Assembly (NCBI RefSeq): GCF_056712565.1
Contig: NZ_CM160072.1
DNA: 64,000 nucleotides
Strand: one strand, 5' to 3'
Each line of letters begins with the position of its first letter. The first letter of the stretch is position 1. The position numbers are program-made. Of this stretch, positions 18,501 to 21,500 are shown piece after piece.

Positions 18501-21500
18501 CATGCGCAAATCGACTCCATCTGGGGAGGCAAGCGTGCGTAATCATCCGTTAGGCATTTATGAAAAAGCGCTGGCGAAAGATCTCTCCTGGCCGGAGCGG
18601 CTGGTGCTGGCAAAAAGCTGTGGTTTTGATTTTGTCGAAATGTCGGTGGATGAAACCGACGAACGGTTGTCACGTCTTGACTGGAGCGCCGCACAACGTG
18701 CTTCGCTGGTCACTGCGATGATCGAAACGGGTGTTGCTATTCCGTCAATGTGCCTGTCCGCACATCGTCGTTTTCCTTTTGGTAGCCGGGACGACGCCGT
18801 GCGCCAGCGGGCGCGGGAGATTATGAGTAAAGCGATTCGCCTGGCGCGCGATCTCGGCATTCGTACTATTCAACTGGCAGGTTACGACGTCTATTACGAG
18901 GATCATGACGAAGGCACCCAGCAACGGTTTGCTGAAGGGCTGGCGTGGGCGGTTGAACAGGCAGCGGCATCACAAGTCATGCTGGCGGTGGAGATTATGG
19001 ACACCGCGTTTATGAACTCTATCAGCAAATGGAAAAAGTGGGACGAAATGCTTGCGTCACCGTGGTTCACCGTTTACCCGGACGTAGGCAATCTCAGCGC
19101 CTGGGGCAATGATGTTCCCGCCGAACTGAAACTGGGCATCGACCGTATCGCCGCCATCCACCTGAAAGACACTCAACCCGTTACCGAACATAGCCCCGGA
19201 CAGTTCCGCGATGTGCCGTTTGGCGAAGGCTGTGTCGATTTTGTTGGCATCTTCAAAACGCTGCATGAGCTGAACTATCGCGGATCATTTCTGATTGAAA
19301 TGTGGACCGAAAAAGCCAAAGAGCCGGTGCTGGAGATTATTCAGGCGCGGCGCTGGATTGAAGCGCGTATGCAGGAGGCCGGATTTATATGTTAGAGCAA
19401 CTGAAAGCTGACGTGCTGGCGGCAAACCTGGCGCTTCCCGTTCATCATCTGGTGACGTTCACCTGGGGCAATGTCAGCGCGATAGACGAAACGCGGCAAT
19501 GGATGGTGATTAAGCCTTCCGGCGTTGAGTATGAGGTAATGACCGCCGACGATATGGTGGTGGTTGAGATAGCCAGCGGCAAGGTGGTGGAAGGCAGCAA
19601 AAAGCCCTCTTCCGACACGCCAACGCATCTGGCGCTTTACCGTCGCTTTGCGGAGATTGGCGGCATAGTGCATACCCACTCGCGCCACGCCACCATCTGG
19701 TCGCAGGCCGGACTTGATCTCCCCGCCTGGGGCACTACTCACGCCGATTATTTTTACGGAGCCATCCCCTGCACGCGCCTGATGACCGCAGAAGAGATCA
19801 ACGGCGAGTATGAATACCAGACCGGCGAAGTGATCATTAAAACCTTCGAAGAGCGTGGGTTGAACCCGGCACAAATCCCGGCGGTACTGGTGCATTCTCA
19901 CGGCCCGTTCGCCTGGGGAAAAAATGCCGCCGATGCGGTGCATAACGCCGTGGTACTGGAAGAGTGCGCCTATATGGGTCTGTTCTCGCGCCAGCTTGCG
20001 CCACAGCTCCCTGCGATGCAAAACGAACTGCTGGATAAGCACTACCTGCGTAAGCATGGGGCCAATGCCTATTACGGGCAGTAGCCATACCTGAGAGTGC
20101 CCGGCAATACACGCCGGGCAGCCTTTCACATCAGAACAGCCCCAACGGTTTATCCGAGTAGCTCACCAGCAGGCACTTGGTTTGCTGGTAATGCTCAAGC
20201 ATCATTTTGTGGGTTTCACGGCCAATGCCTGATTGTTTGTAGCCGCCAAACGCCGCATGTGCCGGGTAAGCGTGATAACAGTTGGTCCACACGCGCCCTG
20301 CCTGAATGCCGCGCCCCATCTTATAGGCCAGATTACCGTTGCGGCTCCAGACGCCCGCGCCCAGACCATATTGCGTATCGTTCGCCAGCTCCAGCGCTTC
20401 TTCCATCGTTTTGAAGGTGGTTACCGCCAGCACCGGGCCAAAAATCTCCTCCTGGAACACGCGCATATTGTTCTGACCAAACAGAATCGTCGGTTTGAGG
20501 TAGTAGCCGTCTTTCAGTTCGCCTTCCAGCAGCTTGCGTCGCCCGCCGGTGAGCACATCAGCGCCCTCTTTTTTACCGATATCAATGTAGTTGAGGATGG
20601 TTTCCAGTTGCCCGTGAGAAACCTGCGCGCCCATTTGCGTCACGCTGTCGAGCGGGTTACCGCTGCGAATGCTTTCGACACGGCGGATAGCGCGTTCCAT
20701 AAAGCGTTCGTAGATAGACTCCTGCACTAAAGCACGGCTTGGACAGGTGCAAACTTCGCCCTGGTTAAAGGCAAACAGTGCAAAGCCTTCCAGCGCTTTA
20801 TCGAAAAAGGCATCTTCTTCATCCATCACATCAGCAAAGAAGATATTTGGCGATTTGCCGCCCAGCTCCAGCGTCACCGGAATAATGTTTTGCGTGGCGT
20901 ATTGCATAATTTGTTGGCCCACTTCCGTTGAGCCGGTAAACGCCACTTTGGCGATGCGTTTCGAGGTCGCCAGATATTCGCCAATTTCCCCACCTGCGCC
21001 GTTGACCACGTTCACCACCCCTGGCGGCAGTAAATCACCGACGATTTCCATTAGCAGCAGTACAGAAAGCGGAGTAAGACGTGCGGGTTTCAGCACCACA
21101 CAGTTGCCAGCCGCCAGCGCGGGAGCCATTTTCCAGCTCGCCATCAGCAGCGGGAAGTTCCACGGGATAATCTGCCCCACCACGCCTAACGGTTCATGGA
21201 AATGATAGGCCACGGTTTCGCTATCCACTTCACTGATCCCACCTTCCTGCGCCCGAATACACGAGGCGAAATAGCGAAAATGATCAATCGCCAGCGGCAC
21301 GTCGGCAGCACTGGTTTCGCGAATGGGTTTGCCGTTATCCCAGGTTTCTGCCGTCGCTAAAAGTTCAAGGTTTTGTTCCATTCGATCGGCAATCTTAAAC
21401 AGAATCGCCGCGCGATCCTGCACCGAGGTGTGCGCCCATTTATCTTTCACTTTATGCGCAGCATCCAGCGCCAGATCGATGTCTCGTTTGCCCGAAGACG

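What the first reader, a model, noticed from the sequence alone, without database searches (positions are those of the whole stretch)
20085..20130. sgbE and aldB are adjacent: the yiaT-yiaU-yiaV-yiaW block of K-12 is missing
From memory of the K-12 map, four genes (an outer-membrane protein, a LysR regulator, a membrane fusion protein and a DUF3302 protein) lie between sgbE and aldB. Here the convergent stops are 46 bp apart with only a GC hairpin (20098..20120). Together with the other differences this marks the interval as a variable region.
Basis: established knowledge. Interest (0 to 1): 0.3.

Follow-up and report, generated by a model that had tools for sequence, protein, structure and literature searches.

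The report
Old deletion scar between sgbE and aldB
In this E. coli strain about ten genes that once lay between sgbE and aldB have been lost, leaving a 46-base scar whose hairpin is the last few codons of a lost antitoxin gene (hicB); this is ordinary strain-to-strain gene-content variation, and the only unusual point is that the sister species E. albertii carries the same scar.

Summary
sgbE ends at 20084 and aldB, on the opposite strand, ends at 20131. The 46 bp between them contain one hairpin (20098-20120). K-12 has yiaT, yiaU, yiaV and yiaW in this interval.

"K-12 block missing" is too narrow. The interval has at least seven structural states. Citrobacter and a cryptic-clade Escherichia point to an ancestral block of about ten genes: araC-like, MFS, GH127, yiaT, yiaU, yiaV, yiaW, hicB, hicA and an HSDR_N-domain gene.

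The window has lost all of them. Its hairpin is a 24-nt exact relic of the hicB 3' coding end, which encodes the conserved C-terminus AARRVLPG. The aldB-side junction lies at a short CAGC(T/C)T repeat. The 14 bp next to sgbE are unexplained.

The same junction occurs in 480-482 of 5426 complete E. coli genomes, including ATCC 11775, E2348/69, LF82 and NC101. Every E. albertii locus retrieved has it with one mismatch, although the flanks there differ by 5-8%. The scar is therefore old, not a recent deletion from a K-12-like layout.

yiaT-yiaU are absent from 30% of the genomes. Only the yiaV/yiaW paralogues yibH/yibI are in the window. This is ordinary accessory-genome variation and of low interest.

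The parts
19389..20084 (+). sgbE (L-ribulose-5-phosphate 4-epimerase), last gene of the yiaK-sgbE operon. It is intact, with stop TAG at 20082-20084; states that carry an insert here have TAA.
   Evidence: The stop-codon difference is seen.
20085..20130 (.). 46-bp convergent intergenic spacer, interpreted as a composite deletion scar.
   Evidence: It is present in 480-482 of 5426 E. coli genomes and in every E. albertii locus fetched.
20085..20098 (.). Left 14 bp, CCATACCTGAGAGT, of unknown origin. It may be filler DNA or a heavily altered piece of the sequence downstream of hicB. Position 20095 is G or T among strains.
   Evidence: Searches found no match outside loci that carry this junction. 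The variation is shown.
20099..20122 (-). Relic of the hicB antitoxin gene. On the minus strand it reads GCT GCC CGG CGT GTA TTG CCG GGC, encoding AARRVLPG, the conserved C-terminus of HicB.
   Evidence: The 24/24 exact match lies at the 3' end of annotated hicB in L084, L086 and L091. The match is 26/27 over 20096-20122. The C-terminus is conserved across Enterobacteriaceae.
20098..20120 (.). GC-rich hairpin with an 8-bp stem and a 7-nt loop. It is formed by the hicB relic and is invariant in all copies of the scar examined.
   Evidence: No T-run follows it and the scan called no terminator. No Rfam family matched.
20119..20130 (.). aldB-proximal sequence CAGCCTTTCACA, homologous in all states. 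The right-hand deletion junction lies here, at the short repeat CAGC(T/C)T shared with hicB.
   Evidence: Homology with other genomes starts at 20119-20121.
20131..21669 (-). aldB (aldehyde dehydrogenase B), intact, 512 aa.
28553..30054 (-). yibH-yibI, paralogues of yiaV-yiaW. They are the only homologues of the missing K-12 genes in the window.
   Evidence: tblastn gave 77% and 75-79% amino-acid identity.

Best explanation
The 46 bp between sgbE and aldB are a deletion scar. They are neither an ancestral empty site nor a simple loss of K-12's four genes.

The ancestor of Escherichia carried a block of roughly 10 kb here: araC-like regulator, MFS sugar transporter, GH127 beta-L-arabinofuranosidase-like enzyme, yiaT, yiaU, yiaV, yiaW, hicB, hicA and an HSDR_N-domain gene. 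Different lineages have lost different parts of it. In the haplotype carried by this window everything is gone.

What remains is (i) 14 bp of unknown origin, (ii) the last eight codons of hicB, which happen to form a perfect 8-bp GC hairpin, and (iii) 8-12 bp of the sequence that always lies next to the aldB stop. The aldB-side junction formed at a 4-6 bp direct repeat, CAGC(T/C)T, as in microhomology-mediated deletion.

The scar arose once and is old. It is shared, with one substitution, by E. albertii and by a large set of E. coli strains that includes ATCC 11775, E2348/69, LF82 and NC101. I know these strains as phylogroup B2; that assignment is from my own knowledge, not from a tool result.

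Shown: the anatomy, the hicB homology, the distribution, and the synteny in the outgroup and sister lineages. Inferred: the order and mechanism of the deletions, and neutrality. The hairpin may now help to end or stabilise the two convergent transcripts, but that was not tested.
For: The 24-nt exact match of 20099-20122 falls at the 3' coding end of annotated hicB in three independent E. coli genomes, at the orthologous position between GH127 and aldB. No match with up to 3 mismatches occurs elsewhere in the window or in any of 100 shuffles.

The HicB C-terminus ...AEAARRVL(P)G is conserved in Trabulsiella, Pseudescherichia, Enterobacter and Metakosakonia. The sequence therefore belongs to hicB and is not a chromosomal site that hicB landed on.

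Citrobacter sp. FP75 and C. werkmanii have sgbE(FP75)-araC-MFS-GH127-yiaT-U-V-W-aldB. A cryptic-clade Escherichia has aldB-HSDR_N-hicA-hicB-yiaW-V-U-T. K-12 and O157 keep a ~100-bp, 81%-identical hicB remnant between yiaW and aldB.

The microhomology is visible by comparing hicB ...GGGCAGCTTCC with the aldB-proximal ...GACCAGCTTTTCACATCA in L091.

For distribution, 480-482 of 5426 genomes carry the junction. The E. albertii type strain, TW07627 and three further E. albertii-type loci have the same 46 bp with one mismatch, while their flanks are 92-95% identical. sgbE next to the scar groups this window with E. albertii: 95.1%, against 92.5% to K-12.
Against: The left 14 bp have no identified source, so the sgbE-side junction is not explained.

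No intermediate was found, neither sgbE-hicB... nor GH127-hicB'-aldB. The searches covered 5426 E. coli genomes and the metagenome collection by exact match.

Strains such as S7 carry araC-MFS-GH127 between flanks that differ from the window by 1 nt in 300 bp on one side and 0 on the other. This is hard to reconcile with a scar older than the E. coli / E. albertii split unless the flanks were homogenised by recombination.

No single genome fetched has all ten genes together. The block is inferred by joining overlapping states.
Confidence: 0.82

Rival explanations
1. A recent one-step deletion of the K-12-type yiaT-yiaU-yiaV-yiaW block in this strain or its close relatives. This is the event implied by the first reader's title.
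For: The four genes are absent, and K-12 has them at exactly this place.
Against: The spacer is not a join of K-12's flanks. It differs from the third base of the sgbE stop codon onwards. It contains the intact-type hicB end rather than K-12's decayed copy. The nearest insert-bearing relatives lack yiaTUVW. The junction is shared with E. albertii on flanks that are 5-8% diverged.
Confidence: 0.03
2. The 46-bp arrangement is the ancestral empty site, and the gene blocks seen in other lineages were inserted into it later.
For: E. albertii, the sister species, has the short form in every locus retrieved. No integrase or insertion scar argues for a recent deletion.
Against: Citrobacter has the full block in the same orientation between the same two genes, at normal vertical divergence. 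The spacer contains eight in-frame codons of a conserved HicB C-terminus, which an empty site has no reason to contain. No state carries an integrase or flanking direct repeats.
Confidence: 0.05
3. The scar is a selected functional element rather than a passive one. It would act as a bidirectional terminator or RNA 3'-end hairpin that insulates the convergent yiaK-sgbE operon and aldB. This is compatible with the deletion origin.
For: The stem is stable (-26 kcal/mol, z = -3.9). A 56-bp stretch (20090-20145) is identical between E. coli and E. albertii, although the neighbouring sequence differs by 5-8%. By my estimate the chance of this is about 0.02 at 7% divergence.
Against: No T-run follows the stem on either strand, and the terminator scan found none. 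No Rfam family matched. The outer 6-bp extension of the stem is broken by the common G/T variant at 20095. The conservation rests on one short stretch.
Confidence: 0.2
4. The scar entered E. coli from an E. albertii-like lineage, or passed the other way, by old introgression. It would have travelled with the divergent yiaL-sgbE operon type, rather than being inherited vertically as a polymorphism.
For: The window shares several features with E. albertii: the extra DUF4862 gene, the yiaM/yiaN alleles (85-87%, against 73-77% to K-12) and a closer sgbE (95.1% against 92.5%). In strain S7 the divergent segment ends exactly at the sgbE stop.
Against: Identity to E. albertii around the junction (92-96%) is not clearly above the interspecies level elsewhere in the locus. 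aldB follows the species tree. No donor lineage was identified.
Confidence: 0.35

Closest known systems
Lineage-specific gene loss in a chromosomal variable region (region of genome plasticity) of E. coli
   Same: Conserved flanking genes, here sgbE and aldB, bracket alternative gene contents in different lineages. No mobility genes are needed. At least seven states were seen.
   Different: Nothing is different in kind. The particular points are that this scar can be decoded, as hicB codons plus a microhomology junction, and that it is shared across a species boundary.
Toxin-antitoxin gene remnants (decayed hicAB cassettes)
   Same: A fragment of the antitoxin gene hicB survives after loss of the cassette. 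K-12 and O157 carry a longer, decayed remnant of the same gene at the same locus.
   Different: Only 24-27 nt remain here, and they match the intact gene exactly. No toxin or antitoxin function is possible.
Rho-independent terminator between convergent genes
   Same: A GC-rich stem-loop sits 13 nt after one stop codon and 10 nt after the other.
   Different: There is no U-tract on either strand and the consensus scan made no call. In K-12, S7 and PCN033 sgbE is followed by a different hairpin, GCCGGGGC-ttcatc-GCCCCGGC.
REP/BIME elements, which fill the aldB-proximal spacer in K-12 and S7
   Same: Both are short palindromic intergenic sequences downstream of aldB.
   Different: The window spacer has no similarity to the REP copies at L001 8890-8970 or L003 8840-8990.

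Membership tests
   The L001 annotation and Pfam hits support this. The block is 100% identical in MC1061, MC4100 and an O16:H48 strain.
   The spacer is 46 bp. tblastn with YiaT and YiaU finds nothing in the 64-kb window. YiaV and YiaW hit only yibH/yibI.
Deletion scar containing a hicB relic | Sequence identity to hicB at the orthologous position in other genomes. | tested here: met
   The match is 24/24 nt (26/27 when extended) to the 3' end of annotated hicB in L084, L086 and L091. No chance matches were found.
Deletion scar containing a hicB relic | The matching sequence is native hicB coding sequence, not a chromosomal site next to it. | tested here: met
   It encodes AARRVLPG, and this C-terminus is conserved in HicB proteins of several enterobacterial genera.
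Deletion scar containing a hicB relic | Outgroup or sister lineages carry the missing genes between the same flanks. | tested here: met
   Citrobacter L004 and L018 and cryptic-clade Escherichia L093 carry them.
Deletion scar containing a hicB relic | Both junctions are explained by joins of known sequence, or intermediates exist. | tested here: inconclusive
   The right junction lies at the CAGC(T/C)T microhomology. The left 14 bp are unexplained. No intermediates were found.
Intrinsic (Rho-independent) terminator | A GC-rich stem-loop. | tested here: met
   The stem is 8 bp and the fold is -26.1 kcal/mol with z = -3.9.
Intrinsic (Rho-independent) terminator | A run of T/U directly after the stem. 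| tested here: not met
   The scan found 0 terminator-like sites in 19800-20400. The tails are GCCTTTCACA on the plus strand and CTCTCAGGTA on the minus strand.
REP/BIME | Similarity to the REP consensus copies present at this locus in other strains. | tested here: not met
   Word-7 blastn of the spacer gave no hit to the REP regions of L001 or L003.
Any curated RNA family (Rfam 15) | A covariance-model match. | tested here: not met
   There were no matches at E <= 1 in 19800-20450.
Integrase-mediated genomic island with an empty attachment site | An integrase or recombinase gene and flanking direct repeats in the occupied states. | tested here: not met
   No integrase is annotated in any occupied state. 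The flanks of the inserts do not repeat the spacer.

The most novel reading that the evidence does not exclude
The 46-bp scar is a structural allele older than, or exchanged across, the E. coli / E. albertii species boundary. It sits at the end of an E. albertii-type yiaL-sgbE operon haplotype that this group of E. coli strains carries, marked by the extra DUF4862 gene and by yiaM/yiaN alleles 23-27% diverged from K-12. Gene-bearing and scar forms would then have coexisted in E. coli for a very long time, with flanks repeatedly homogenised by recombination through the universally conserved last 29 bp of sgbE.
Probability: 0.45. Interest if true: 0.35.

Novelty: new member of a known kind. Interest (0 to 1): 0.2.

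Why it matters
The finding matters only modestly, in four ways.

1. It corrects a K-12-centred reading. K-12's arrangement is itself a degraded state, with AraC, GH127 and hicB fragments. About 30% of complete E. coli genomes lack yiaT and yiaU.

2. YiaU has been proposed as LpsR, a regulator of yiaT and of the waa LPS-core operon, in K-12 (PMC9068703). Conclusions drawn from K-12 about that regulator therefore cannot apply to the many clinically important strains that carry this junction, such as ATCC 11775, E2348/69, LF82, NC101 and APEC O18.

3. The scar is a compact, unambiguous marker shared with E. albertii. It could be used to study old recombination or incomplete lineage sorting between the two species.

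4. No new mechanism or gene family is involved.

Tried and rejected
- **Intermediate states.** I searched the 5426 E. coli genomes with chimeric queries for sgbE-scar-left+hicB and for GH127-hicB'+scar-right. The first query had no place at >=80% coverage. The second had one, and it is a joined-pieces artefact. Exact 33- and 37-nt patterns in the metagenome collection gave 0 hits.
- **Source of the left 14 bp.** There is no other copy in the window with <=2 mismatches and none in 100 fetched loci except those with the same junction. Word-7 blastn against all enterobacterial loci gave nothing.
- **Canonical terminator or promoter.** None was called.
- **Known RNA family.** None matched.
- **REP element.** There is no similarity.
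- **Recent transfer between E. albertii and E. coli.** A sliding-window comparison shows 95-96% identity around the junction. This is no higher than other patches of the locus, and there are four mismatches in the last 22 bp of sgbE.
- **Recent import of the S7 island from another phylogroup.** The island is only 96-98% identical to the four non-B2-type islands compared, so no close donor was found.
- **Literature.** I found no paper describing this junction, a hicB relic at aldB, or the phylogroup distribution of yiaT.
- **The rest of this genome.** I could not scan beyond the 64-kb window. Absence of yiaT/yiaU elsewhere is inferred from collection-wide counts, not shown for this strain.
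Full report
**1. The observation**

sgbE occupies 19389-20084 and is full length: 231 aa, matching the L-ribulose-5-phosphate 4-epimerase model over its whole length. It ends in TAG at 20082-20084. aldB lies on the minus strand with its stop at 20131-20133 and an intact 512-aa product. The 46 bp between them (20085-20130) contain one inverted repeat, TGCCCGGC-aatacac-GCCGGGCA, at 20098-20120.

A K-12-type chromosome (L001) has yiaT, yiaU, yiaV and yiaW between the two genes. Its 4191-bp interval is 100% identical in MC1061, MC4100 and an O16:H48 strain. Pfam assigns the four products to MipA, LysR, HlyD/CusB-type membrane fusion protein and DUF3302.

- a 102-bp AraC-family pseudogene fragment;
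- a 189-bp GH127 fragment;
- a 47-codon ORF;
- REP elements.

**2. The interval has many states**

The fetched genomes show these arrangements between sgbE and aldB.

| State | Example | Content | Source |
|---|---|---|---|
| A | K-12 | AraC and GH127 fragments, then yiaTUVW | |
| B | Citrobacter sp. FP75 | araC-like, MFS, GH127, yiaT-U-V-W. C. werkmanii has the same block from aldB to the araC-like gene, but sgbE was not detected in its locus. | |
| F | O157:H7 | As B, but the whole yiaK-sgbE operon is missing | |
| C | strain S7 | araC-like, MFS, GH127, REPs; no yiaTUVW | |
| E | PCN033 | araC-like, MFS, GH127, hicB, hicA, an HSDR_N-domain gene | |
| E' | Z0117EC0051, SW070912 | As E, without the HSDR_N gene | |
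| – | SW07163 | IS1-mediated loss from yiaT to yiaY | |
| D | this window | Nothing | |

A cryptic-clade Escherichia has aldB, HSDR_N gene, hicA, hicB, yiaW, yiaV, yiaU and yiaT in one run. This links the hicBA module and yiaTUVW on a single chromosome. K-12 and O157 keep a ~100-bp stretch, 81% identical to the hicB 3' end and its flank, between yiaW and aldB.

Overlapping these states gives an ancestral block of about ten genes. I did not see all ten together in one genome, so the full block is an inference.

**3. Frequencies in 5426 complete E. coli genomes**

| Feature | Genomes | Source |
|---|---|---|
| Window-type junction (state D) | 480-482 | |
| GH127-REP-aldB junction (state C) | about 739 | |
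| PCN033-type junction (state E) | 190 | |
| yiaT-yiaU present | 3784 | |
| yiaT-yiaU undetectable | 1642 | |

Where yiaT-yiaU are present they are at >=95% identity, essentially one place per genome, and never on plasmids. These numbers leave no room for a hidden second copy in genomes with the scar. I could not scan this strain's whole genome directly.

Within the window the only homologues of the missing genes are yibH and yibI (28553-30054). They share 77% and 75-79% amino-acid identity with YiaV and YiaW, and K-12 has them too.

**4. What the 46 bp are**

The spacer is not a join of the flanks seen in K-12, S7 or PCN033. Those three all read TAA-tccctcacgccggggcttcatcgccccggcac after sgbE. 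The window differs from the third base of the stop codon onwards.

A sensitive search of the spacer against every fetched locus gave one significant hit outside scar-bearing loci. The sequence 20099-20122 (GCCCGGCAATACACGCCGGGCAGC) is identical to the 3' coding end of hicB in PCN033. It is also identical to hicB in the two other hicB-bearing loci. The match extends to 26/27 nt. No match with up to three mismatches occurs elsewhere in the window or in shuffles.

Read on the minus strand, these 24 nt encode AARRVLPG. An alignment of HicB proteins from Escherichia, Trabulsiella, Pseudescherichia, Enterobacter, Metakosakonia and others shows that ...SAFLAEAARRVL(P)G is the native, conserved C-terminus of this family. 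The "GC hairpin" is therefore a fossil of eight hicB codons that happen to be self-complementary. This sets the polarity: the short form is derived.

The bases 20119-20130 (CAGCCTTTCACA) are homologous to the sequence next to the aldB stop in all states. In SW070912, hicB reads ...GGGCAGCTTCC and the aldB-proximal sequence reads ...GACCAGCTTTTCACATCA. The right-hand junction therefore lies at a 4-6 bp direct repeat, as expected for a microhomology-mediated deletion.

The left 14 bp (CCATACCTGAGAGT) match nothing I could find.

**5. Age of the scar**

The E. albertii type strain has the same 46 bp with one substitution. So do strain TW07627, two further E. albertii assemblies, and two metagenomic or read-assembled contigs that carry the same SgbE protein.

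The flanking genes in E. albertii are only 92-95% identical to the window. A sliding-window comparison shows no island of near-identity around the junction, and there are four mismatches in the last 22 bp of sgbE. A composite scar with a 14-bp segment of unknown origin cannot arise twice, so the junction is identical by descent and old.

Three features fit this. sgbE, next to the scar, is closer between the window and E. albertii (95.1%) than between the window and K-12 (92.5%). The window also shares with E. albertii an extra DUF4862 gene (12603-13523) and yiaM/yiaN alleles that are 85-87% identical, against 73-77% to K-12. aldB, on the other side, follows the species tree.

Among E. coli the junction is found in ATCC 11775, E2348/69, LF82, NC101, APEC O18, BEN2908 and an ST1193 strain. 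I know these as phylogroup B2 strains; that assignment is from my own knowledge.

**6. An unresolved tension**

Strain S7 (state C) has the same divergent operon type and flanks as the window. It differs by one base in the last 300 bp of sgbE and by none in the last 300 bp of aldB. Yet it carries araC-MFS-GH127 at ordinary within-species divergence from other phylogroups, 96-98%.

Two readings are possible:
- Both forms have long coexisted, and recombination has homogenised the flanks. The last 29 bp of sgbE are identical in all E. coli examined, which would allow crossovers right at the boundary.
- One form was moved between lineages by old recombination.

I could not decide between these with the data available.

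**7. Function**

The hairpin is stable (-26.1 kcal/mol, z = -3.9). It is followed by no T-run on either strand, is not called as a terminator, and matches no Rfam family. Its 8-bp core is invariant in all copies. A predicted 6-bp outer extension is broken by the common G/T variant at 20095.

A role in ending or protecting the convergent sgbE and aldB transcripts is possible but untested.

The consequences for gene content are clearer. Strains with this junction lack:
- the YiaU/LpsR regulator reported to control yiaT and the waa operon in K-12 (PMC9068703);
- the YiaV/YiaW pair;
- the MFS/GH127 sugar module;
- the hicAB toxin-antitoxin pair.

**8. Verdict**

It is framed too narrowly around K-12.

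The feature is an ordinary, old, lineage-specific deletion scar in a chromosomal variable region. I found no paper describing it, but it involves no new kind of element. Interest is low. The cross-species sharing of the scar is the only part that might repay further work.

Noticed in passing
window 21777-23072 (minus strand): A 431-aa Fic-family gene lies between aldB and yiaY. K-12 and PCN033 lack it. S7, E2348/69, LF82, O157:H7, E. albertii and a cryptic-clade Escherichia have it.
   Followed up: partly
window 12116-15384 (yiaL 3' end, DUF4862 gene at 12603-13523, yiaM, yiaN): An extra DUF4862 gene lies between yiaL and yiaM. The yiaM/yiaN alleles are only 73% and 77% identical to K-12's at the DNA level but 85% and 87% identical to E. 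albertii's. This looks like a replaced or very old operon haplotype. S7 and E2348/69 share it; PCN033 does not.
   Followed up: partly
window 18535-20084 (sgbU-sgbE): This segment is only ~92% identical to the other E. coli types compared, which is as far as E. albertii is. In strain S7 the high divergence stops exactly at the sgbE stop codon, and the next gene, araC-like, is 96-97% identical.
   Followed up: partly
window 27874-30054 and beyond: yibF is followed directly by yibH-yibI and then mtlA. The RhsA element that follows yibF in K-12 and PCN033 is absent.
   Followed up: no
L001 4842-5135 and 8750-8851 (K-12-type genome): K-12's own interval is degraded. It has a 102-bp AraC-family fragment, a 189-bp GH127 fragment, and a ~100-bp, 81%-identical remnant of the hicB 3' end that overlaps the end of a 47-codon annotated 'hypothetical protein'.
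   Followed up: yes
L095 3388-5154 and 9884-10393 (E. albertii TW07627): lyxK and sgbH are called as a single 588-aa fusion (FGGY_N plus OMPdecase). An IS200-type Y1 transposase gene lies between Fic and yiaY.
   Followed up: no
L093 11466-16411 (cryptic-clade Escherichia): yiaT is followed by sodA, kdgT and cpxA instead of GH127 and the sgb operon. This clade therefore has a rearrangement or a loss of the whole yiaK-GH127 side.
   Followed up: no
L090 10047-11417 (E. coli SW07163): An IS1 copy abuts a truncated yiaT, and yiaU through yiaY, including aldB, are missing. This is a separate, IS-mediated deletion at the same hotspot.
   Followed up: no
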